Shown one piece after another: positions 1,400-24,322 of a stretch of 64,000 nucleotides of DNA. The DNA comes from Bacilli bacterium (lineage in GTDB: Bacteria; Bacillota_I; Bacilli_A; ML615J-28; CAG-698). Position 1 is the first letter of the stretch, and each line of letters opens with the position of its first letter. The notes beneath the pieces were generated by a model that made no database searches, was not told the DNA's origin, and saw nothing but the letters and a program-made list of their open reading frames with translations. Where the stretch lies: contig JAZLLM010000085.1 of NCBI GenBank assembly GCA_045598145.1, forward strand, positions 7,303 through 71,302. Reading direction: 5' to 3'. Position numbers and translations under genes: made by a program.

Positions 1400-2547
1400 A
1401 ATTTTTTAGTTTTAGTTTTTGTTTTAATTAATAAATTAACCGTACGTATTTTTTCAATAGTGTTATAAAATGTTTGAATTTGTGGATCGTTAGGTAATGG
1501 TAATTCTTGAAAGAAATTCACAGCACCGTCGAAATATAAAGGACAAATACCATTTTGATCACCTTCACGATTAACAATTACTTCTAAAAATCTAATATTA
1601 TTACGAAATTTAGTTATATCGTAACCTAAATATTCTTTTATTTCGTGACGAAACGGACTAAATAAACCTAACATAATATCAACATCTCTTGCAATAGTTT
1701 TAGAATCTCCTAAACCATTAGCACTTGGTCTTAATTTTTTAAGTTTAAAGTTTTCAGAAGATTCCACATCAGCTGCTTGTTGAACAATTTCAACAGGACT
1801 AATATTATATCTATTACGAAGTTTTACAAGATATGAAGATAGTAAATCCATTGATTGTTTTAAACTCAAACCACTTTCAGTTTGTACTAATCCTAAATGA
1901 TCAATAATCGGAATAAAATAATTATCTGGATCATTTGGTTCATAATAATCAAAAGCTTCAACTTGTTCTTTTTCGCCAGTGAATTTATTAGTTATAGTAG
2001 TATTTTTGTAATGTGTTTTACCATTTTCTATAATGTACGATTCTAACGATTTTTTAATACCTGTAGGATGTCTTTCAGGTCTAAATTCTACACATTTATA
2101 ATAAAAATCCATTATAGATGAATACGGTTCTTGTTTTAATAAATTAAGAATACTTTCATCTAATGGTTTATTTGATTTAGTAGATTTTAAATCTTTAGTT
2201 GTAATATGTATTTTACCTTGCGAACATCTATATAACAAATACGATATAAATCTTAATGTTATATTTTCTTGAGATTCTTCAAGATTATAATAATAAATTT
2301 TTATTCGTACCTGTTCAGCATGTTCGTAGGCATATAAAAGAGTATTATATAAAAATATATAATTAGCAACTTGAGTTTTTCCTATTTTAGTATTCGCAGT
2401 AATCATATATAATTTACCGTGCTCAATACCAACAAAATCATTACTAAATCTAATAAAAGGAGAGGGAATACAATTGATTCTACCGTCAAGAATATTTTGT
2501 CTTCTTTGTTGTAGAAAACTAATTAGTGAGTTATAATTTTCATTCAT
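1339..2547 (-). CDS. DnaB-like replicative helicase (RecA-fold C-terminal domain)
   Basis: 402 aa. LYMITANTKIGKTQVANYI resembles the DnaB Walker A region (LIIIAARPSMGKTAFALN). IIDHLGLVQ resembles the DnaB H3 strand. GDSKTIARDVDIMLGLF resembles DnaB SGSIEQDADLIMFIYR. By-eye motif matching only. Confidence 0.6.
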   Translation of the reverse strand: MNENYNSLISFLQQRRQNILDGRINCIPSPFIRFSNDFVGIEHGKLYMITANTKIGKTQVANYIFLYNTLLYAYEHAEQVRIKIYYYNLEESQENITLRFISYLLYRCSQGKIHITTKDLKSTKSNKPLDESILNLLKQEPYSSIMDFYYKCVEFRPERHPTGIKKSLESYIIENGKTHYKNTTITNKFTGEKEQVEAFDYYEPNDPDNYFIPIIDHLGLVQTESGLSLKQSMDLLSSYLVKLRNRYNISPVEIVQQAADVESSENFKLKKLRPSANGLGDSKTIARDVDIMLGLFSPFRHEIKEYLGYDITKFRNNIRFLEVIVNREGDQNGICPLYFDGAVNFFQELPLPNDPQIQTFYNTIEKIRTVNLLIKTKTKTKKLWQKLLQFLGIAVTVKQPQL

Positions 2548-3143
2548 TATTTTAAATCAGCAACCCAATTACTATTTTGTTGTGGCACTTCTCCATCTTC
2601 TATATATGCAATATAAGTAAGTAAATCAGATTTAAATTCGTTTTCACCACCTTTTTCTTCATTTTTATATATAAAAAACGGTAATGTGCGCATTGTAGTT
2701 AAATCACCATTAAAAGATTCAATATATTTTTTACAAGCTTCCCTAACTTTATCATAATCAAGTAATTCATGTAAATATTTATCTTGTAAAGTAGTTAATC
2801 GTTTTGTTAATTCAAAAACACTACATCTCCAAGATTTATTAGTATTCGGCTTAATGCCTTTTGGATACATATTTATTAAATCTTTAGCTAATTTAATTGT
2901 TTCTTCTTTATCAACAAAAGTTACGATTTTAGTATTGGTTACATCTTGAATTGTTTTTATGATATTAATATCATTTATATGATAACTTTTCGTAATAGGA
3001 TTTTTTGTTACTTGTCCACTATCTAAAAATCTTTGTAATAAAGTTTTTAATGATAAATTTTTATAAACAAACAATAAAGCTAAATATTCTTCTGTTGAAA
3101 TATGTTGTTCTTTTAAACGATTTTTATTAATTATCAAATCCAT
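2547..3143 (-). CDS. hypothetical protein
   Basis: 198-aa ORF, start overlaps stop of helicase gene (coupled). Confidence 0.4.
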   Translation of the reverse strand: MDLIINKNRLKEQHISTEEYLALLFVYKNLSLKTLLQRFLDSGQVTKNPITKSYHINDINIIKTIQDVTNTKIVTFVDKEETIKLAKDLINMYPKGIKPNTNKSWRCSVFELTKRLTTLQDKYLHELLDYDKVREACKKYIESFNGDLTTMRTLPFFIYKNEEKGGENEFKSDLLTYIAYIEDGEVPQQNSNWVADLK

Positions 3144-3305
3144 TATCTATGTCATTTTGTGTTAAGTTTAGATTTAAAATTTGTTTACATATAGTATTAA
3201 TTTGATTTACATTAGTTGGTTGTAATGGTGAATTAACATCATATATAAACCATTCTGTTCTAAAAGCATCCATTAATAATGCTAATTTTTTTAATCGTTC
3301 TTCCA
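3127..3305 (-). CDS. small hypothetical protein (59 aa)
   Basis: Hand-translated minus-strand ORF MEERLKKLALLMDAFRTEWF...NGFDN. It is below the 60-aa track cutoff and overlaps the next gene's start by ~17 nt. Confidence 0.25.
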
Positions 3306-3362
3306 TAATTTAATTAATAAGTGTAACATTTCAGGTTCGTCACCCATTAATTCTGTAATAAA

Positions 3363-3390
3363 ATCTCCTATTCCCGCAAATGGGAATAGG
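3363..3390 (-). terminator. rho-independent terminator (11-bp perfect stem CTCCTATTCCC/GGGAATAGGAG) downstream of lysin gene
   Basis: Perfect inverted repeat with 6-nt loop. On the minus strand it is followed by TTTTATTAC. Confidence 0.55.
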
Positions 3391-3411
3391 AGAATAATAC
3401 TAATTTTTGTT

Positions 3412-3936
3412 TTACAATTTTTTAACAATTTGTTTGATTTTCTTAACATAGTTTTTATCAGAAGCGTAATGTTTTTCTAAGTAATTGTAGTATTGTTTTT
3501 CATTTAAATTACTACAATATTTTGATTGAAAAAAAGCATAATCTATTACAGCATCATACCAAGTATTAAAGACGCAATATTCTTCGTTTCCAATATTCAT
3601 TGTTGGTCTTTTTGATGGTACTTTCATACCAAATAAATTATTTTTCAAAAGCATTTTTTCATCTGTCAGATTACCAGTTTCTAATAATGCCTGTGCTAAT
3701 ACAATTTTAGGATGTTCAACTTTAATATCTAATAAATATTGATATAAAGTTTCTTGTGATAAGATTTCAATTTCTTCATCGTTACATTCAACTACAACAT
3801 TTTGTTGTACAGGTTGTTCAATTCGTTTAATTTCTTTTTTAATTTTATTAATCGAACTATATTCTATACAATATGCTGTAAAAAAGAATAATACGATAAT
3901 TATTACTACAATATCTGCTTTATTAAGTTTTTTCAT
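3412..3936 (-). CDS. peptidoglycan hydrolase, glucosaminidase (FlgJ/mannosyl-glycoprotein endo-beta-N-acetylglucosaminidase) family with N-terminal membrane anchor
   Basis: 174 aa. N-terminal hydrophobic helix IVVIIIVLFFFTAYCI. Motif VLAQALLETGNLTDEKMLLKNNLFGMK matches the glucosaminidase signature A-x-A-x-LESGWG...NNLFGIK. Confidence 0.6.
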   Translation of the reverse strand: MKKLNKADIVVIIIVLFFFTAYCIEYSSINKIKKEIKRIEQPVQQNVVVECNDEEIEILSQETLYQYLLDIKVEHPKIVLAQALLETGNLTDEKMLLKNNLFGMKVPSKRPTMNIGNEEYCVFNTWYDAVIDYAFFQSKYCSNLNEKQYYNYLEKHYASDKNYVKKIKQIVKKL

Positions 3937-3938
3937 TG

Positions 3939-4127
3939 TTAATTTGTTCTAATTGTACGATATCTATTAATACATTGCTGTACCGTAAATTTCGTACTAT
4001 TTTCACTTAAATAATTAATTTTATCGATAACTTTTGAGATAGCATCCTTCATACTATTTTTACGATTAGTAATTGCTTGAAGAATAAGACGATCTTGTTT
4101 TTTGTTAAATTTTGATGTAAAAAGCAT
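3939..4127 (-). CDS. small hypothetical protein
   Basis: 62-aa ORF immediately upstream of the lysin gene; basic, no TM. Confidence 0.3.
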   Translation of the reverse strand: MLFTSKFNKKQDRLILQAITNRKNSMKDAISKVIDKINYLSENSTKFTVQQCINRYRTIRTN

Positions 4128-4146
4128 AACTTTAAATTTTAAATTA

Positions 4147-4968
4147 TTAAAAGATTTTATATAATGTTATATTATTATATTGTGAAATATCCCAATTTTT
4201 ATAAGAATTAGTAATAACTACTTTATCAAAAGTATTAGATAGTTTTTGTAAACCTTCTTCGTTAACAACATGTGTTACAGCAATATTAATAGGAATTGAC
4301 CATATTTTTCTTAATTGTTTAGCAATAGAAATAAATGTATTACCACCATCACATAAATCATCAATTAAGAGAATACTTTCTGGTTGAAAATCACGTTCAA
4401 TTTGTGTTAACGTTATATCTTGTTCAATAAATTTAATTTTACCAGTAGATAAATCACGTACTTTCTTAAATGTCATATATGGATTATTGCTATAATGTCG
4501 CAAATATCTTTGATATGCACCATGATCAGGAAAGCACATAATAGTATTTTTATCTATTAATAAATTACCAACATGTGTATATGGTAAATAAATACTATTA
4601 TTAATAAACGTTGTTGTTTTAGAAGAATGAGGTTCTAAAATATTAACTACTTGCGGTTTTAAATTATTAATAATATTACTGACAATTTGTAAACTACAAG
4701 ATTCATTAAAAGACATTAGTCTATCCATACGCATACTCATAAGATAAGTAATTTCTAATTGCCATTCAATTAAATGTCTATTTAATATATCACCTATCTG
4801 CATAAGAATAAATAAATCATTTGCTGAAACAATACGCATACGAATACAATATGTTTCTTTATGATCTATAACGTCTTCAAATACAAAATGTTGTTCACCG
4901 TCTTTAAAATTAATAATTTTAAATTTAATATCTGATAATTCTGGATTTAATAAATTAATAATGTTCAT
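4147..4968 (-). CDS. ribose-phosphate pyrophosphokinase (Prs/PRPP synthetase)-like phosphoribosyltransferase; candidate ADPR-PP synthetase (Adps-like)
   Basis: 273 aa. C-terminal PRTase motif SILLIDDLCDGGNTF resembles Prs VLVDDMIDTGGTL. TYLMSMRMDR resembles Prs PYFGYARQDR. N-terminus LNPELSDI..FKDGEQ resembles Prs GNATPELAQ..FSDGE. The R5P-binding DLHA..QIQGFF region is diverged (EPHSSKTTTF). ATGA overlap with the upstream NAMPT-like gene. Confidence 0.65.
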   Translation of the reverse strand: MNIINLLNPELSDIKFKIINFKDGEQHFVFEDVIDHKETYCIRMRIVSANDLFILMQIGDILNRHLIEWQLEITYLMSMRMDRLMSFNESCSLQIVSNIINNLKPQVVNILEPHSSKTTTFINNSIYLPYTHVGNLLIDKNTIMCFPDHGAYQRYLRHYSNNPYMTFKKVRDLSTGKIKFIEQDITLTQIERDFQPESILLIDDLCDGGNTFISIAKQLRKIWSIPINIAVTHVVNEEGLQKLSNTFDKVVITNSYKNWDISQYNNITLYKIF

Positions 4969-18873: not shown

Positions 18874-18980
18874 TTTTAAATTTTTTAAGTTATGAGAACG
18901 TAAATGTGGTGGTAAAAAAGGTCGTGGTGTAAAAAAAAATAAATTATTTTTTTATATTTCATTAAACTTTTAAATAAAAG

Positions 18981-19005
18981 CACTATCTATATAGTGCTTT
19001 TATAA
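18981..19005 (+). terminator. rho-independent terminator (GCACTAT-CTAT-ATAGTGC + TTTTAT)
   Basis: 7-bp perfect stem followed by T-tract, downstream of 17662..18873. Confidence 0.5.
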
Positions 19006-19007
19006 AA

Positions 19008-19126
19008 TGGGATGTATCCCCTCTGTCTTATAAACAGTTGAAAGGGTAGTTGGTTCCACGTGGGTTCAACCCCCACCGTCCCAACAAAAGTGAAGATCCC
19101 CAGTTCAAGTCTGGGATTCGCTACAT
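19008..19126 (+). other. two tandem tRNA T-arm/acceptor-like hairpins (tRNA-like remnants?)
   Basis: GTGGG-TTCAACC-CCCAC followed by CGTCCCA, which pairs with upstream TGGGATG at 19008-19014. CCCAG-TTCAAGT-CTGGG followed by ATTCGCTA. Neither could be folded into a complete canonical cloverleaf by hand. Confidence 0.3.
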
Positions 19127-19160
19127 GCCGAAGTGGTGGAATGGTAGACACGAGGGACTT

Positions 19161-19857
19161 TAACAATATGCTCGATATGAAATGGACAAAAGATGATTAT
19201 GCTAGGGCTGTCAAAAGCTCACAAAGTATAGCTGGAGTTTGTAGATTTATGGGATTGAAACCTATTGGTGGAAATTACAGAATAATACACAAAGCTATAG
19301 AAGACTTTAATTTGGACACTGCACATTTTACGGGTCAAGGATGGAACAAAGGATTAAAGTTCAATCCAAAGAAGAAACAAAGAATTGAAGATATTCTGAC
19401 AAAGAATTCTTCTTATCAGAGTTTCAAACTGAAAAAAAGACTCCTAAAAGAAGGTTTGAAAGCAGAGAAATGTGAACTTTGCGGTCTTGTGGAATGGAAA
19501 GGATTTCCGATACCTCTTGAACTTCATCATATCAATGGAGACAACAGAGACAACAGAATCCAAAACCTGCAGCTCATTTGCCCGAACTGCCACGCACTGA
19601 CAGACAATTATCGAGGATTGAACAAGAGTGCTCACAGGGAAACCGATGAAGTAGAATTGTCCTAACAAACAGAAACCTCTTTGATGGCGACATCTTAGAA
19701 GGCGGTGGCTCACTAAGTGGAAGAAATTCCTAAATGGCGTAGAGACTATACAGGCAACACCTAAACCTATCTGGTATATCATATAGGCATGGTGAAGAAA
19801 TAGTCCAGACTACAACATCTCACGTTAGATGGCCTGTGCAAAAGCAGGAGTAGCAAG
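19161..19857 (+). mobile_element. group I self-splicing intron (~697 nt) carrying an HNH homing endonuclease ORF
   Basis: Last exon nucleotide before the intron is U and the intron ends in G. The 3' core contains AGAGACTATA (19741-19750, R-like, P7 GACUA) and AGAAATAGTCC (19795-19805, S-like, P7' UAGUC). Insertion site matches the canonical cyanobacterial/plastid tRNA-Leu(UAA) intron position. Confidence 0.55.
19168..19665 (+). CDS. HNH homing endonuclease (intron-encoded)
   Basis: C-terminal motif ELHHINGDNRDNRIQNLQLICPNCHALTD (HNH with Zn-finger Cys pairs CELCG...CPNCH). The track ORF start (GTG at 19060) is an artefactual extension through upstream tRNA-like sequence. First in-frame ATG inside the intron is 19168 (MLDMKWTKDD). 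Confidence 0.7.
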   Translation: MLDMKWTKDDYARAVKSSQSIAGVCRFMGLKPIGGNYRIIHKAIEDFNLDTAHFTGQGWNKGLKFNPKKKQRIEDILTKNSSYQSFKLKKRLLKEGLKAEKCELCGLVEWKGFPIPLELHHINGDNRDNRIQNLQLICPNCHALTDNYRGLNKSAHRETDEVELS

Positions 19858-19912
19858 AAAATCCCTTGCTCATTGCGAGCGTGTGGGTTCAAGTCCCACC
19901 TTCGGTACATTT

Positions 19913-19983
19913 GCGTAAGTCAGTTAAAAGATAAGCCCCAATAAAAATAATTGGTAATATAGGTTTAAGTCCTATCTTACGCA
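19913..19983 (+). tRNA. tRNA-like element or pseudo-tRNA with A-rich anticodon loop
   Basis: Acceptor GCGTAAG/CTTACGC+A. T-arm ATAGG-TTTAAGT-CCTAT. Anticodon-like stem CCAAT/ATTGG with loop AAAAATA (no U33). D-arm weak. Non-canonical, so low confidence. Confidence 0.3.
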
Positions 19984-20003
19984 CAATTTAAAAATAAAAA
20001 TTT

Positions 20004-20189
20004 ATGAATAAAGAAGAATATAACGATATACCAGTATATTATTGCAAAGATTGTTTATCATTAAATATACGTACTATGGACGAACAATATGATTATTGCG
20101 GTAAGTGTGGTAGTTTACATATAGGTGTTTCTATGATAGATGATTGGAAACAATTATATGAAGGTAAATATTATAGACCTTTAATTTAA
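20004..20189 (+). CDS. small Zn-ribbon protein
   Basis: 61 aa with CKDC...CGKC (two CxxC pairs). Confidence 0.35.
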   Translation: MNKEEYNDIPVYYCKDCLSLNIRTMDEQYDYCGKCGSLHIGVSMIDDWKQLYEGKYYRPLI

Positions 20190-21508: not shown

Positions 21509-22065
21509 TGAAGTTATTTAATTTTGTTAATTTTCAAGTTAAAATATCCGAAGAAGCCTTGTCAATCAAGGCTTTTCGTGATATATGGAATAGAGATAAA
21601 TCAGTAGAAAAAATAAAAGCGATTCAAGAATTAGGTTTTGTATATTTTTATTGCGATCCAAGAAGTGATTATATGTTTTTGATTGATGAAGATACTCGTA
21701 TGCAAAAAATTATTGAACAAGAAGGATTACCTTCAAATTGGAAGCCTGATAAAGAAGTACAAAAAGCAATAGAAGTTTACAAATATTTAACAACAACACC
21801 TGGTTCATTACTTTTACAAGATACACGCGAACTTGTTGATAAATTACGTAATCAATTAAAAGAAATTGATTTAACTTTAATGGATGATAAAGGTAAGCCT
21901 GTCTATACATTAAATACTATAACATCAACAATTAAACAAATTCCAGATTTAATAAAAGACTTAAATGAAGCTGAAAAAACAATTGCAGATGAAATAGATG
22001 AAAATGCAAAAATGCGTGGTTCGGGTATAAAAAAGATTTTTGAAGATGGTTTTAAATTTCAATAA
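21508..22065 (+). CDS. hypothetical protein (position compatible with small terminase subunit)
   Basis: 185-aa ORF directly upstream of and overlapping TerL. No motif support for TerS. Confidence 0.35.
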   Translation: MKLFNFVNFQVKISEEALSIKAFRDIWNRDKSVEKIKAIQELGFVYFYCDPRSDYMFLIDEDTRMQKIIEQEGLPSNWKPDKEVQKAIEVYKYLTTTPGSLLLQDTRELVDKLRNQLKEIDLTLMDDKGKPVYTLNTITSTIKQIPDLIKDLNEAEKTIADEIDENAKMRGSGIKKIFEDGFKFQ

Positions 22066-24322
22066 TAAACAAACAGTTTTAACAGATGAAGTATTAAATT
22101 CTTTACCTACTGAAGTCAAAGAAGAACTTTTAACCAATATAAATGGAATTTCATTTATAAATAATTTAATTTCATCTGAAAGAAAATATGCTAAAGATTT
22201 ACCAAGAGATGATGAAGGTAAAATAATTGTAGATTTAATAAATCCTCATATTTTAGAAAATATGGATTATTTTAGACAAGCAGCTATACATTATAAAAAG
22301 TACGGTTGTTATACTAATTTACGTCCTAATAGTAATCCGAATAGTGAATATATGAAATGGGCTAGGGAAGAAATTAGACGTTGTTGGTACGGAATGGTTA
22401 GACCTTCAGATGGAGAATGGATTCCTGGGGATTTATATTTTTATTGGAATTATTGTCCTATACAACAAACAAAAGTTAAAGAAGGTTCACGTAAAGGTGA
22501 TCGTATTATAGATTTTCCAGAACCTTGGGATTCAACGTATTTTTGGGCACATTATGTTTATCAAGCTATGTATGGTGGTAAATATAATGATTACAAAGGT
22601 GGTAATCATTTTTTTGTTATTGCACGACGCGGTATTGGTAAATCATATTATTTATCCTCAAACTTAGCAAAAACTTTTATATTAGGTGAGAGTGCAGATG
22701 TTTGTGAATCAGTTAAAGGTACAATTGTCGCTGCTGATAAAACATATCTTATAGAAGATGGTACATTAAATAAATTTGAATATTATATAAATTTTTTATC
22801 TGAAAATACAGAATGGCCAGCTCAGCGTACTGGTAGTTTAAATGATATGTATTGGGAAATGAGTTATCGTGATAATGCTCATCCTGGTAAACAAGGTACT
22901 GGTAATGTAATAGTAGGTTTGTCTGTTAAAGATAAAGCAGGTAAAGTTCGTGGTAAACGTGCAGTTAGGACTTATTTTGAAGAAGTTGGTTCTTTTCCAA
23001 ATCTTATAGATACATATAATACTGCAAGATACAATGCTGAAGAAGGTGATATTTCATTTGGTGTTTTAGGATTAATTGGTACTGGTGGTGAAAAAGGTCA
23101 AAATTTTGCTGGTGCTCTTGAAATGATTTATAATCCACGAGGTTATGGTTTGTATCCATTACCAAATGTATTTGATAAAACTTCCAATGGTGGTGAAGTA
23201 ATTTTATTTTTAGGTGCGTATTTAAATCGTAAATTACATTACGATAAAGACGGTAATTCAGATGTTATTGGAGCCTTAATTGAAGTTCTAACAGAACGTT
23301 ATATGATTAAAAATACATCATCTGATCCAGCTACACTTACACAAAAGAAAGCAGAACTGCCTATTACTATTCAGGATTGTGTAATGAAAGTAGATGGTAA
23401 TTTTTATCCAGTTGCTGATATTACAGAACGTTTAAATCAACTTTCTGCTAATCCACGTTTATTAGATGATGTAGCTGTAGGTAAATTGAATATGGTCGGA
23501 GGAAAAGTTGAATTCCAAGCTGTATCTGATAAACCGATTAGAGAATTTCCTCATAAAACTAATAAACTTGAAGGTGCTATAGAATTTTTTAAAATGCCTG
23601 AAATTAATGGAGCTACTAATAGAGTGTTTGATAATAGATATATTGCTGGCGCAGATGTTTACGATAATGATGTTGCTAATTCATTATCATTAGGTTCCAT
23701 TTTAGTATTAGATTTATTTACTGACCAAATAGTATGTGAATATACAGGACGTCCTATGTTTGCTGATGATTTTTATGAAATATGCCGTAGAATATGTTTG
23801 TTTTATAATTGTAAAGTTAGTTATGAAAATAACAAAAAGGGTTTATATGGTTATTTCGGTAGAATGCATTCTTTATATCTTTTAAAAGAAAGATTACAAA
23901 TTGTACAAGATAAAGATTTAGCAAAAGGTGAACCTGTAGGTAACAATGCTTATGGTGTAACATCTACAGTGCCTATTAAAAATTATTCACGTGGTAGAAT
24001 ACGCGATTGGTTATTAAAACCTTATATTAAAACAGAATTACAAAATGGTGAAGAAGTTGAAGTTTCATATCCTCAATTATATAATATTCGCAATATAGCT
24101 TTATTAAAAGAATTATCAATGTACAATTTAGAAAATAACTTTGATAGACATGATGCGCTTGCAATGTTGATATTATATAGAGAAGATGTTTACAGATTGA
24201 CTTCTGGTGAACCAAACAAACAAGATAACAATTCAAGTGGTTTAGAGATAGATGACTTTTTTTCTTCTTATGAAAGAAAACAAGGAAAAGCTGTTAAAAA
24301 TAATAAATGGTTATTAGAATAA
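22040..24322 (+). CDS. terL: terminase large subunit (TerL)
   Basis: 760 aa. Walker A-like FFVIARRGIGKSYYL in the N-terminal ATPase region. Size and position (immediately upstream of portal) typical of crAss-like TerL. Confidence 0.7.
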   Translation: MKMVLNFNNKQTVLTDEVLNSLPTEVKEELLTNINGISFINNLISSERKYAKDLPRDDEGKIIVDLINPHILENMDYFRQAAIHYKKYGCYTNLRPNSNPNSEYMKWAREEIRRCWYGMVRPSDGEWIPGDLYFYWNYCPIQQTKVKEGSRKGDRIIDFPEPWDSTYFWAHYVYQAMYGGKYNDYKGGNHFFVIARRGIGKSYYLSSNLAKTFILGESADVCESVKGTIVAADKTYLIEDGTLNKFEYYINFLSENTEWPAQRTGSLNDMYWEMSYRDNAHPGKQGTGNVIVGLSVKDKAGKVRGKRAVRTYFEEVGSFPNLIDTYNTARYNAEEGDISFGVLGLIGTGGEKGQNFAGALEMIYNPRGYGLYPLPNVFDKTSNGGEVILFLGAYLNRKLHYDKDGNSDVIGALIEVLTERYMIKNTSSDPATLTQKKAELPITIQDCVMKVDGNFYPVADITERLNQLSANPRLLDDVAVGKLNMVGGKVEFQAVSDKPIREFPHKTNKLEGAIEFFKMPEINGATNRVFDNRYIAGADVYDNDVANSLSLGSILVLDLFTDQIVCEYTGRPMFADDFYEICRRICLFYNCKVSYENNKKGLYGYFGRMHSLYLLKERLQIVQDKDLAKGEPVGNNAYGVTSTVPIKNYSRGRIRDWLLKPYIKTELQNGEEVEVSYPQLYNIRNIALLKELSMYNLENNFDRHDALAMLILYREDVYRLTSGEPNKQDNNSSGLEIDDFFSSYERKQGKAVKNNKWLLE

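What the first reader, a model, noticed from the sequence alone, without database searches (positions are those of the whole stretch)
19127..19907. Phage tRNA-Leu(UAA) split by a group I intron at U34/A35 carrying an HNH homing endonuclease
Both tRNA halves fold by hand into a complete class II tRNA-Leu once ~697 nt are removed. The 5' exon ends ...AGGGA-CUU and the 3' exon begins AAAA-UCCCU. The intervening sequence begins after a U, ends in G, and contains group I R/S core elements (AGAGACUAUA and AGAAAUAGUCC, which form P7). It encodes a protein with the HNH motif ELHHINGDNRDNRIQNLQLICPNCH. The insertion point between anticodon positions 34 and 35 is the position of the ancient cyanobacterial/plastid tRNA-Leu(UAA) intron. 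Finding it in a Bacteroidota-type phage, with a homing endonuclease aboard, is unusual. Whether the intron was acquired or this is a mobile variant is open.
Basis: partly seen in the sequence, partly recalled or inferred. Interest (0 to 1): 0.8.

Follow-up and report, generated by a model that had tools for sequence, protein, structure and literature searches.

The report
Mobile self-splicing intron in phage tRNA-Leu
A crAss-like gut phage carries a leucine tRNA gene interrupted by a 697-base group I (self-splicing type) intron that encodes its own DNA-cutting enzyme. Gut Bacteroidales chromosomes carry the same mobile element, so it is a real but not unique case that standard annotation tools miss.

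Summary
Removing 19161-19857 (697 nt) joins 19127-19160 and 19858-19907 into a clean class II tRNA-Leu(UAA). ARAGORN finds this only when intron search is switched on.

The insert has the group I hallmarks:
- a U·G pair at the 5' splice site in P1;
- a terminal G;
- a P3/P7 pseudoknot with near-consensus R and S elements;
- helices P2, P3, P5a, P6, P8 and P9 supported by covariation across relatives.

An intact HNH endonuclease gene (162-165 aa) fills the P1 loop. Its last codons overlap P1', P2 and P3.

Rfam RF00028 does not hit this intron. I read that as a false negative: sister introns that share the 3' core do pass RF00028.

The element is not rare. An exact core pattern finds it in 32 viral contigs and 58 genome contigs, almost all of the latter from Bacteroidales. 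The closest relatives (about 74% nt identity, HNH 68-73% aa, same layout) sit in chromosomal Prevotellaceae and Bacteroidaceae tRNA-Leu(UAA) genes. Intron-less alleles with an identical 29-bp target are abundant, including in other crAss-like phages.

Verdict: a new member of a known kind, a mobile IC3-like tRNA-Leu intron shared between host and phage. Splicing and cleavage are inferred, not shown.

The parts
19127..19160 (+). tRNA-Leu(UAA) 5' exon: acceptor 5' strand, D arm, 5' half of the anticodon arm through U34.
   Evidence: ARAGORN with intron search, and on the spliced sequence; sequence.
19161..19857 (+). Group I intron, 697 nt. It follows U34 (19160) and ends in the terminal G (omega-G) at 19857.
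   Evidence: Homologous ORF-less and ORF-bearing introns at the same site. Covariation.
19858..19907 (+). tRNA-Leu(UAA) 3' exon: A35 onward, long variable arm, T arm, acceptor 3' strand, discriminator A73. CCA is not encoded (the sequence continues ACAU).
19157..19160 (+). P1 5' strand (exon ACUU). U19160 forms the U·G wobble with G19626 at the 5' splice site.
   Evidence: Alignment to ORF-less relatives such as Lak-B2 and L012. The exon and guide sequence co-vary between classes: ACUU/GAGU versus CUCU/GGAG.
19626..19629 (+). P1 3' strand, the internal guide sequence GAGU. It lies inside the K-S-A codons of the HNH ORF.
19168..19665 (+). HNH homing endonuclease ORF in the P1 loop (L1). It is 165 aa from ATG 19168; the conserved start is ATG 19177 (162 aa). 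Its 3' end overlaps P1', P2 and the P3 5' strand, and the stop codon UAA lies in J3/4.
19471..19593 (+). HNH catalytic and zinc-binding motif region (CELCG...ELHHINGDN...NLQLICPNCH), residues 102-142.
   Evidence: Pfam HNH and HNH_3, both above their curated cut-offs.
19632..19649 (+). P2 hairpin capped by a GAAA tetraloop (19639-19642). Relatives have 7 bp. Here two positions (19635-36 against 19645-46) are mismatched.
   Evidence: RNAfold of 30 distinct relatives shows a covarying 7-bp stem with a GAAA loop.
19657..19661 (+). P3 5' strand (UUGUC). It pairs with 19753-19757.
   Evidence: Four of five pairs show changes on both sides (helix 2).
19670..19707 (+). P4-P5 domain. P4 has only two demonstrable pairs (19670-71 with 19706-07). 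J4/5 is GAA. P5 is 19675-77 with 19701-03. The P5a hairpin is 19680-86 with 19691-97, closed by a GCGA loop.
   Evidence: Pair 19671-19706 is AU 48, GC 11, CG 4 in 63 distinct sequences. P5a has 6 of 7 pairs with double changes.
19708..19738 (+). P6. The outer GC/GC pairs (19708-09 with 19737-38) are inferred by analogy with the RF00028 alignment of L008. The inner hairpin is 19719-22 with 19727-30, closed by a GAAA loop.
   Evidence: Inner hairpin: 4 of 4 pairs with double changes. Outer pairs are invariant and therefore only inferred.
19737..19750 (+). R element GCGUAGAGACUAUA. It includes the P7 5' strand (19744-19749).
   Evidence: Invariant in all 16 aligned relatives.
19753..19757 (+). 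P3 3' strand (GGCAA).
19758..19794 (+). P8. The stem is CACC/GGUG. It carries a motif like the 11-nt GAAA-tetraloop receptor (CCUAAA...CAUGG) and an extended hairpin (CCUAU/AUAGG).
   Evidence: Covariation at 19758-19794: five pair types and four (CG, AU, UA, GC) on A1. The receptor role is inferred from the sequence motif.
19795..19806 (+). S element AAGAAAUAGUCC: J8/7 plus the P7 3' strand (19800-19805).
   Evidence: invariant.
19810..19857 (+). P9 domain. The outer stem is 19810-13 with 19850-53. P9a is 19816-20 with 19827-31. P9b is 19833-37 with 19844-48. The terminal G is at 19857.
   Evidence: P9a has 5 of 5 and P9b 4 of 5 pairs with double changes.
19143..19160 (+). Upstream half of the presumed homing site (GGTAGACACGAGGGACTT). 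It is identical in the Bacteroidales intron-containing alleles recovered with intact exons.
   Evidence: The spliced 29-mer occurs in at least 120 metagenome contigs.
19858..19868 (+). Downstream half of the presumed homing site (AAAATCCCTTG).

Best explanation
The gene at 19127-19907 is a tRNA-Leu(UAA) gene of a crAss-like (Crassvirales) phage, interrupted between U34 and A35 by a mobile group I intron with IC3-like architecture.

Splicing (inferred from the anatomy). The precursor folds so that exon ACUU pairs with the guide GAGU, placing U19160·G19626 at the splice site. An external guanosine attacks there. The terminal G19857 then occupies the P7 guanosine site and the exons are ligated, while the anticodon stem helps hold them together. 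The product is an 85-nt tRNA that host enzymes must finish with CCA. It decodes UUA, which makes up 70% of this phage's leucine codons.

Mobility (inferred). The 162-165-aa HNH endonuclease is encoded in the P1 loop. It is presumed to nick or cut intron-less tRNA-Leu(UAA) genes at the conserved anticodon-arm sequence. Repair from the intron-bearing copy then spreads the intron by homing. The same intron and endonuclease occupy chromosomal tRNA-Leu(UAA) genes of Prevotellaceae and Bacteroidaceae, and only the roughly 29 bp around the site are identical between phage and host alleles. The phage copy was therefore most likely invaded by homing from a host allele during infection, or the reverse.

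Shown here: tRNA integrity after excision, group I anatomy with covariation, an intact HNH ORF, presence/absence polymorphism, and host-phage sharing. Inferred: catalysis, the endonuclease target, and the direction of transfer.
For: 1. tRNA. ARAGORN -i finds tRNA-Leu(taa) with a 697-nt intron, and the spliced sequence is a clean class II tRNA.

2. Group I anatomy.
- U·G at the 5' splice site and a terminal G.
- R = GCGUAGAGACUAUA and S = AAGAAAUAGUCC.
- On a 16-sequence alignment, the P3/P4/P5/P5a/P6/P7/P8/P9 structure I named has 94.8% of cells paired, against 79.6% in shuffles and 35-45% when partners are slid. 28 of 49 pairs change on both sides. The covariation score is 0.444 against 0.159, with 0 of 500 shuffles as high.
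- P2 is a covarying 7-bp stem with a GAAA loop in relatives.
- The P4 pair 19671-19706 is AU/GC/CG in 63 sequences with no exception.
- The guide sequence co-varies with the exon across host tRNAs.

3. Link to validated group I introns. Family-B relatives found with the same R...S pattern pass the RF00028 gathering score: L008 at 56.3 bits and L022 at 50.5 bits. They are 61-68% identical to this intron from R to the terminal G.

4. ORF-less versions sit at the identical site: Lak-B2, L012, L047 and others, 230-290 nt.

5. HNH. Pfam HNH_3 and HNH pass their cut-offs and PHROG 10822 matches at 1.5e-50. The protein aligns at full length, 68-73% identical, to ORFs in the same intron position in Bacteroidales contigs.

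6. Host sharing. About 72-75% nt identity over about 770 nt to L080, L096, L098, L051, L058 and others. L058 and L095 are flanked by KsgA, LPG synthase, SpoIID and adenylosuccinate lyase genes. The 29 bp around the site are identical while the rest of the exons differ.

7. Empty sites. Intron-less tRNA-Leu(UAA) occurs in IAS virus and cr127_1, both crAss-like. The exact 29-mer occurs in at least 120 metagenome contigs, as 61 distinct tRNAs.

8. The phage is crAss-like: TerL is about 50% identical to those of cr108_1 and IAS virus. UUA accounts for 677 of 961 Leu codons.
Against: - No RF00028 hit on this intron or on any family-A relative, even at permissive thresholds.
- P4, normally 5-7 bp, can be shown for only two Watson-Crick pairs. 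The flanking sequence is invariant, so covariation is silent there.
- P2 in this copy has two mismatches that its relatives lack: -4.4 against about -9 to -13 kcal/mol in its closest relatives.
- No P10 pairing with the 3' exon is evident in this copy. The bases just 5' of GAGU are AA, opposite the AAA that begins the 3' exon.
- No RNA data exist, so splicing, endonuclease activity and expression are all unproven.
- Two relatives (L007, L017) lack a terminal G, which shows that some family members may be defective.
Confidence: 0.85

Rival explanations
1. Decaying relic. The insert descends from a group I intron but no longer splices in this phage, so the tRNA-Leu gene is a pseudogene and the HNH gene persists as a selfish passenger.
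For: This copy has two P2 mismatches that its relatives lack and no obvious P10. ARAGORN calls none of the neighbouring tRNA-like units at 19008-19085, 19090-19126 and 19913-19983; the first and last are degenerate or non-canonical and the middle one is only a 3' half. That suggests a decaying tRNA cluster. L007 and L017 show that defective-looking copies exist.
Against: The core helices are as intact here as in relatives: 3 non-pairs of 49, one of which is the family-wide A·C. The P5 irregularities are shared with the closest host alleles. R, S, U·G and the terminal G are all intact. Both exons still form a perfect tRNA. The ORF is full length with all HNH and Cys residues. UUA is the dominant Leu codon, so the tRNA is plausibly under selection.
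Confidence: 0.1
2. Not an intron. A free-standing HNH endonuclease gene inserted into the tRNA gene and destroyed it, and the R/S-like motifs are coincidental.
For: The same HNH family is free-standing between tRNA genes in S-CRM01 and GodonK. In Dulem virus 42 a 54%-identical HNH sits in a tRNA anticodon loop with no recognisable ribozyme core. There is no RF00028 hit.
Against: About 230 nt of non-coding, covarying RNA structure flanks the ORF. ORF-less versions of the same RNA sit at the same site. The insert boundaries obey the U|...G| rule, with a matching guide sequence. Related introns pass RF00028.
Confidence: 0.03
3. Assembly or binning artefact. The intron-bearing tRNA belongs to a Bacteroidales chromosome and was joined to phage sequence by mis-assembly.
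For: The nearest relatives are chromosomal Bacteroidales alleles.
Against: The exons outside the 29-bp site differ from all host alleles seen. The locus lies among tRNA-like units upstream of TerL, and IAS virus likewise carries its tRNA array, including an intron-less tRNA-Leu(UAA), upstream of TerL. Identity to host copies is only about 74%, not near 100%. Other complete phage genomes (cr115_1, Lak, LR756511) carry the same kind of intron.
Confidence: 0.02

Closest known systems
[quoted passage not shown] Listed in the 2026 survey of bacterial tRNA introns (PMC13011429, Fig. 6 legend). Seen here as L098, L051, L052, L046, L058, L080, L095 and L096.
   Same: Same insertion site (34/35). Same family-A ribozyme. 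Same HNH family in the same place (the P1 loop, with the ORF end overlapping P1'/P2/P3). About 72-75% nt identity over the whole element and 68-73% aa identity.
   Different: This copy is in a crAss-like phage genome, inside a phage-type tRNA-Leu whose acceptor, variable and T arms differ from the host alleles. It has two P2 mismatches and an extra upstream ATG. I could not confirm that the published Bacteroidota case is this exact family, because the supplement was not readable.
[quoted passage not shown]
   Same: Insertion between U34 and A35. Small IC3-like core with near-identical R/S elements. A short P1 built on exon ...CUU. Exons held together by the anticodon stem.
   Different: The cyanobacterial and plastid introns carry no ORF (my background knowledge; the 2026 survey lists HEGs only for other cyanobacterial tRNA introns). 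They have a canonical 6-7-bp P4 (my background knowledge). This family has a highly conserved, apparently reduced P4 region and is not recognised by RF00028. No direct sequence comparison with Anabaena was run here.
Family-B phage tRNA introns found here (L008, L022, L015, L026, L031, LR756511 = L039).
   Same: Same R...S core pattern. 61-68% identity from R to the terminal G. Many sit at 34/35 of tRNA-Leu(UAA), and several carry the same HNH family.
   Different: They have a canonical P4 (UUCGGCG/CGCCGAG). Two pass RF00028. The HNH ORF is often in the P6 loop rather than the P1 loop (L026, L031, L039).
Synechocystis tRNA-fMet intron encoding I-Ssp6803I (Bonocora & Shub 2001, cited in PMC3984707).
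   Same: A group I intron in a tRNA anticodon loop that carries its own homing endonuclease targeting the anticodon region.
   Different: The endonuclease is PD-(D/E)XK, not HNH. The site is 33/34 of tRNA-fMet. It is bacterial, not phage.
Phage group I introns with HNH endonucleases in protein-coding genes (for example SPO1 I-HmuI; Twort and Bastille-type introns), and group I introns in crAss-like and Jug phage protein genes (PMC7886860, PMC12880540).
   Same: Phage-borne group I intron plus HNH homing endonuclease. crAss-like phages are already known to be rich in group I introns.
   Different: Those interrupt protein-coding genes. The 2014 review states that all phage introns then known were in protein-coding genes despite many phage tRNA genes (PMC3984707). 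This one interrupts a tRNA gene.
Free-standing homing endonuclease genes in phage tRNA clusters (the same HNH family in S-CRM01 and GodonK; by background knowledge also T4 SegB and the T5 F-Tfl enzymes).
   Same: Same protein family (35-40% identity) and an association with tRNA genes.
   Different: Those genes lie between tRNA genes and have no ribozyme around them.

Membership tests
Group I intron | The 5' splice site follows a U that forms a U·G wobble with an internal guide sequence (P1). | tested here: met
   U19160·G19626 within ACUU/GAGU. The guide is conserved as GAGUGC in all class-i relatives and switches to GGAGC where the exon is CUCU.
Group I intron | The intron ends in a guanosine (omega-G). 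| tested here: met
   G19857 precedes the AAAAUCCCU exon. A G holds this position in 17 of 19 relatives tabulated.
Group I intron | Conserved catalytic core: a P3/P7 pseudoknot with R and S elements forming P7, and P8 between them. | tested here: met
   R = GCGUAGAGACUAUA and S = AAGAAAUAGUCC. P7 is invariant. P3 has 4 of 5 and P8 2 of 4 pairs with double changes.
Group I intron | P4-P6 domain: P4, an A-rich J4/5, P5 and P6. | tested here: inconclusive
   P5a and P6 covary strongly and J4/5 is GAA. P4 shows only two Watson-Crick pairs, one of them covarying AU/GC/CG. The rest is invariant sequence.
Group I intron | Match to the Rfam RF00028 covariance model. | tested here: not met
   No hit at E<=10 on 18900-20100, nor on ORF-less relatives. 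Family-B relatives that share the 3' core do reach the gathering score. This is a model-sensitivity criterion, not a biochemical one.
Group I intron | Guanosine-dependent self-splicing. | not testable with these tools
   Needs in vitro transcription with GTP and Mg2+, or RNA sequencing.
IC3 subgroup (tRNA-type group I introns) | Compact core, a P2 capped by a GNRA loop that docks on a receptor in P8, and a P9 with GNRA-type loops. | tested here: inconclusive
   The L2 loop is GAAA (19639-42). P8 carries CCUAAA...CAUGG, which resembles the 11-nt receptor. No subgroup-specific covariance models were available.
HNH homing endonuclease (intron-encoded) | HNH catalytic motif with zinc-binding cysteines. 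| tested here: met
   Pfam HNH_3 25.9 bits (cut-off 24.8) and HNH 23.0 bits (cut-off 21.4). PHROG 10822 at E = 1.5e-50. CxxC...HH...N...CxxCH is present.
HNH homing endonuclease (intron-encoded) | Encoded in a peripheral loop of the intron, with intron-plus and intron-minus alleles of a conserved target in related genomes. | tested here: met
   The ORF lies in L1. ORF-less and ORF-bearing introns and empty sites all exist in Bacteroidales and crAss-like phages.
HNH homing endonuclease (intron-encoded) | Site-specific nicking or cleavage of the intron-less allele. | not testable with these tools
   Needs a protein expression and cleavage assay.
tRNA-Leu(UAA), bacterial class II | Cloverleaf with a long variable arm, anticodon UAA and discriminator A73 after intron removal. 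| tested here: met
   ARAGORN on the spliced sequence: 85 nt, tRNA-Leu(taa).

The most novel reading that the evidence does not exclude
The intron and HNH element may be more than a passenger. It may shuttle between Bacteroidales chromosomes and their phages and work as a weapon. The phage's own tRNA-Leu(UAA) gene is immune because the intron splits the target. The endonuclease would cut the intron-less tRNA-Leu(UAA) gene of the host or of co-infecting phages, whose 29-bp site is identical. That would damage competitors or force them to take up the element, a form of marker exclusion.

A linked possibility is that 'family A' is a structurally distinct group I subclass with a minimal P4, invisible to RF00028. 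It has colonised many phage tRNA genes, including genes whose anticodon I read as CUA (amber-suppressor type). Splicing could then gate tRNA supply during infection.
Probability: 0.12. Interest if true: 0.7.

Novelty: new member of a known kind. Interest (0 to 1): 0.45.

Why it matters
1. Annotation. Default tRNA finders report no tRNA in this 64-kb window, and RF00028 reports no intron. Phage tRNA sets, codon-adaptation analyses and searches for suppressor tRNAs in recoded phages will miss intron-split genes of this family.

2. Biology of mobile introns. A 2014 review held that phage group I introns are confined to protein-coding genes. Here a tRNA-borne intron is shown by sequence to be shared between a phage and the chromosomes of its host order, with a perfectly conserved 29-bp site. 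That gives a concrete system for studying host-phage intron traffic in the gut.

3. RNA structure. The family keeps a textbook P3-P7-P8-P9 core but has an unusually conserved, apparently reduced P4 region. This may explain the covariance-model blind spot and is worth a structural look.

None of this changes the basic classification. It is a group I intron with a homing endonuclease at the classic tRNA-Leu site.

Tried and rejected
- Rfam at the gathering and permissive thresholds found no group I hit on the window or on family-A relatives. The only nearby oddity was a sub-threshold LOOT RNA match over P8-P9 (29 bits, gathering score 46). I attribute it to the shared CCUAAAC...GCAUGG receptor-like motif.
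- A first guess placed the guide sequence inside the ORF (GGAGU at about 19234). I dropped it once ORF-less relatives showed the conserved GAGUGC at 19626.
- I looked for a longer P4 by covariation on 22 and then 63 sequences. Only one covarying pair emerged; the rest is invariant.
- RNAalifold recovers P3, P5a, P6, P8 and P9 but not P7, because P7 forms a pseudoknot.
- I looked for the same phage with an empty site in IMG/VR, using the 3' exon and then the T-arm plus acceptor. The first search found no match and the second found only an unrelated tRNA-Leu(CAA).
- The promoter and terminator scan was uninformative.
- A PDB sequence search with the HNH protein found nothing significant.
- A loose R/S pattern search found no second group I core in the window.
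- The supplement of the 2026 tRNA-intron paper held no searchable HNH entries.
- I did not run structure prediction or the large protein-database searches, because the HNH assignment was already firm.
Full report
**1. Observation**

Default ARAGORN finds no tRNA in the whole window. With intron search enabled it calls tRNA-Leu(taa) at 19127-19908 with a 697-nt intron after position 34. The spliced sequence folds into an 85-nt class II tRNA-Leu(UAA). The intron is therefore 19161-19857. It follows U34 (19160) and ends in G19857, and the 3' exon starts AAAAUCCCU. The R-like element is at 19741-19750 and the S-like element at 19796-19806. The ORF 19168-19665 carries the quoted HNH motif.

**2. 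Is it a group I intron?**

Rfam RF00028 gives no hit on the window at the gathering threshold or at E<=10 on 18900-20100.

- blastn against GenBank phages matched the 3' 200 nt to an unannotated stretch of the crAss-like phage cr115_1 and to Lak megaphages.
- In those genomes ARAGORN -i also finds tRNAs split in the anticodon loop, by ORF-less inserts of 228-245 nt (cr115_1, Lak-B1). Lak-B2 has a tRNA-Leu(UAA) split at exactly U34|A35.
- Aligning the window to the ORF-less Lak-B2 intron located the internal guide sequence, GAGU at 19626-19629. It pairs with exon ACUU 19157-19160 and places U19160·G19626 at the splice site.
- The HNH ORF therefore sits in the loop of P1. Its last roughly 13 codons run through P1', P2 and the 5' strand of P3, and the stop codon lies in J3/4.

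An exact-pattern scan (GTAGAGACTATA, 25-55 nt, AAATAGTCCAGAC) found 32 viral contigs. ARAGORN -i placed the match inside an intron-split tRNA in 28 of the 32. They fall into two families.

| Family | P4 region | RF00028 | Examples |
|---|---|---|---|
| A (this window) | Strongly conserved CUAAYAAACNGAARCC ... GGYGRNGGCUYACUAAAU | No hit | WIN, L005, L012, cr115_1, Lak-B1, Lak-B2 |
| B | Canonical P4 (UUCGGCG/CGCCGAG) | Two members pass: L008 at 56.3 bits, L022 at 50.5 bits | L008, L022, L015, L026, L031 |

From R to the terminal G, the window is 61-68% identical to family-B members, including the two that pass RF00028.

I trimmed the P1 loop and aligned 16 distinct family-A sequences (A1). I then tested a structure that I named: P3, P4, P5, P5a, P6, P7 as a pseudoknot, P8, P9, P9a and P9b. 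The results:

| Measure | Named structure | Shuffled | Partners slid |
|---|---|---|---|
| Cells paired | 94.8% | 79.6% | 35-45% |
| Covariation score | 0.444 | 0.159 (0 of 500 as high) | at most 0.094 |

- 28 of 49 pairs change on both sides.
- P3, P5a, P6, P8, P9a and P9b each carry compensatory changes. P7 is invariant.
- P2 is a 7-bp stem capped by GAAA, with abundant covariation.
- P8 carries CCUAAA...CAUGG, which resembles the classic GAAA-tetraloop receptor. This suggests the L2-P8 docking typical of IC3 introns, but that is inference.
- The guide sequence tracks the exon. It is ACUU/GAGU in tRNA-Leu(UAA) and tRNA-Lys(UUU), and CUCU/GGAG in a second class.
- The window copy is not an outlier in the core: 3 non-pairs of 49, one of which is the family-wide A·C.

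Three weak points remain. P4 can be shown for only two pairs, although 19671-19706 is AU 48, GC 11, CG 4 in 63 distinct sequences. This copy has two P2 mismatches that its relatives lack. No P10 pairing is evident.

**3. The endonuclease**

Pfam HNH_3 and HNH both pass their curated cut-offs, and PHROG 10822 'HNH endonuclease' matches at E = 1.5e-50. tblastn finds the family in 227 GenBank phage records.

The family appears in three settings:
- free-standing between tRNA genes (S-CRM01, GodonK);
- in the P6 loop of family-B tRNA-Leu introns (L026, L031, and the 595-kb phage LR756511);
- in the P1 loop, as here (L005, L015).

Relatives start at the ATG that corresponds to 19177 (162 aa). The ATG at 19168 is specific to this window. 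No solved structure matches by sequence.

**4. Context and origin**

The window is from a crAss-like phage. The 760-aa ORF at 22040-24322 is about 50% identical to the large terminases of cr108_1, IAS virus and others. Related crAss-like phages carry intron-less tRNA-Leu(UAA) genes. IAS virus has one in an 18-tRNA array upstream of TerL, and cr127_1 has one as well.

The same core pattern scanned against one genome per species gave 58 contigs. Almost all come from Bacteroidales MAGs (Prevotellaceae, Bacteroidaceae, Cryptobacteroides, Paludibacteraceae). Nearly all hold a family-A intron in tRNA-Leu(UAA), either ORF-less (230-290 nt) or ORF-bearing (680-750 nt).

These are the closest relatives of the window element. 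Identity is 72-75% over about 770 nt, and the HNH protein is 68-73% identical over its full length with the same layout. Two of the contigs are clearly chromosomal. L058 is flanked by KsgA, an LPG-synthase-type membrane protein and SpoIID. L095 is flanked by adenylosuccinate lyase and a tyrosine recombinase.

Split by region, identity to host alleles whose regions were recovered intact:

| Region | Identity |
|---|---|
| 5' exon | 86-89% |
| ORF | 68-72% |
| Ribozyme | 78-81% |
| 3' exon | 68-72% |

The 18 nt before the site and the 11 nt after it are identical, whereas the acceptor, variable and T arms differ. That is what homing into a pre-existing phage tRNA gene predicts. It does not fit capture of a whole host gene.

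Among the 80 loci retrieved there are 61 distinct intron-less tRNA-Leu(UAA) sequences, some on megabase contigs. Some have exons that match intron-bearing Prevotellaceae alleles. Empty targets are therefore plentiful.

UUA is 677 of 961 leucine codons in the window's long ORFs, so the tRNA is plausibly useful to the phage.

**5. Literature**

- A 2014 review states that all phage group I introns then known were in protein-coding genes, despite many phage tRNA genes (PMC3984707).
- crAss-like and Jug phages are known to be rich in group I introns in protein-coding genes (PMC7886860; PMC12880540).
- A 2026 survey of bacterial tRNA introns lists 34/35 of tRNA-Leu as a classic site. It reports that 12 of 333 introns carry endonuclease genes, among them an HNH in tRNA-Leu(UAA) of Bacteroidota. 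It also notes that RF00028 misses some tRNA introns (PMC13011429).
- I found no paper describing group I introns in phage tRNA genes. The library is incomplete, so this is not proof of absence.

**6. Verdict**

The finding is real and correctly interpreted. It is a mobile group I intron of IC3-like design with an HNH homing endonuclease, at the classic tRNA-Leu(UAA) site, in a crAss-like phage. It is a new member of a known kind. The same element lives in the host order's chromosomes and in many other phage contigs. Its value lies in the annotation blind spot it exposes, in the host-phage sharing, and in the unusual P4 region of its family. Splicing and endonuclease activity remain to be demonstrated.

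Noticed in passing
window 19008-19086; also L040 601-679 (Streptomyces phage Mildred21) and L101-L112: A tRNA-like RNA with rewired topology. It has a 7-bp acceptor stem and a normal T arm, but the anticodon arm (CUGU-CU[U/G]AUAA-ACAG, anticodon UAU or GAU, both isoleucine) comes directly after positions 8-13. It is closed by a 3-bp stem (11-13 with 37-39), and a D-loop-like UAGUUGGUU follows the anticodon arm instead of preceding it.

It is 86% identical between this 29%-GC crAss-like phage and about 82 Streptomyces phages, where it is unannotated and, in Mildred21, lies just downstream of a tRNA nucleotidyltransferase gene. Twelve further viral contigs carry it. The named structure is 100% paired, with 9 of 20 pairs changed on both sides. 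A covariance model built from it aligns ordinary tRNAs only through the acceptor, D-loop and T arm. ARAGORN misses it, and I found no literature on it. It may be a functional non-canonical tRNA-Ile.
   Followed up: partly
L001 1422-1722 (cr115_1, NC_055898.1); L002 1423-1740 (Lak-B1); L009, L019-L021, L023, L032, L034: Family-A introns of 205-245 nt split type I tRNAs. Under the group I rule (exon ...CUCU| paired to guide GGAGC, terminal G, then AA(A/C)), these tRNAs have anticodon CUA. They would be amber-suppressor tRNAs interrupted at 35/36. ARAGORN mislabels them Ser(cga), His or Arg, and default searches miss them. This is relevant to stop-codon-recoded crAss-like and Lak phages. I did not check whether these genomes actually recode TAG.
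   Followed up: partly
L003 872-1615 (Prevotella phage Lak-B2; the same match in Lak-B4, B5, B7, B8 and C1): One tRNA-Leu(UAA) gene appears to carry two group-I-like introns. One is in the D loop (GGU|AAAGUG...UUUUUG|AGACAC, with R = GCAGAGACUAUA and S = AAGAUAUAGUCC). The other is at 34/35. The 2026 survey of bacterial tRNA introns I read describes group I insertions only within the anticodon loop, so a D-loop site would be unusual. RF00028 hits neither intron.
   Followed up: partly
window 19089-19126: An acceptor plus T-arm 'minihelix' (AGUGAA/UUCGCU stem, CCCAG-UUCAAGU-CUGGG, then ACA) with no D or anticodon arms. It lies directly between the odd tRNA-like unit and tRNA-Leu. Folding z-score is -2.6. 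It may be a tRNA remnant or a processing element.
   Followed up: no
window 19913-19985: A weak tRNA-like unit: Rfam tRNA 30.5 bits, folding z-score -3.4. It has a poor D stem and an anticodon loop AAAAAUA with no U33. ARAGORN does not call it.
   Followed up: no
L004 1392-2009 (Dulem virus 42, PP511876.1): The closest HNH homologue in GenBank phages (54% aa) sits in a 532-nt insert in the anticodon loop of a class II-type tRNA, with no recognisable R/S ribozyme core around it. The record annotates it as 'NinG'. Just upstream (941-1332) is a sub-threshold permuted-tmRNA match (37.4 bits, gathering score 47).
   Followed up: no
L007 and L017 (IMG/VR contigs): Two independent family-A introns end ...GUAGUAC|AAAC, with no terminal G, and their exon boundaries do not fit the usual U|...G| rule. 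They may be defective copies or use an atypical 3' splice site.
   Followed up: no
window 19652 with 19856 (alignment A1 columns 72 and 295): The base just before the terminal G co-varies with a base in J2/3 upstream of P3: UA, AU, GC and GU, with 14 of 16 paired. It may be a tertiary or P9.0-like contact that positions the 3' splice site.
   Followed up: partly
L026 75-721 (IMG/VR contig 3300028591_003923): A full-length ROOL RNA (255.8 bits) lies in a phage contig a few kb upstream of its tRNA cluster.
   Followed up: no
L041 (IAS virus NC_049978.1) 2281-4679: The RefSeq record annotates its 18 tRNA genes on the strand opposite to the one on which ARAGORN and my blastn match place them. This is a likely strand error in the record.
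   Followed up: no
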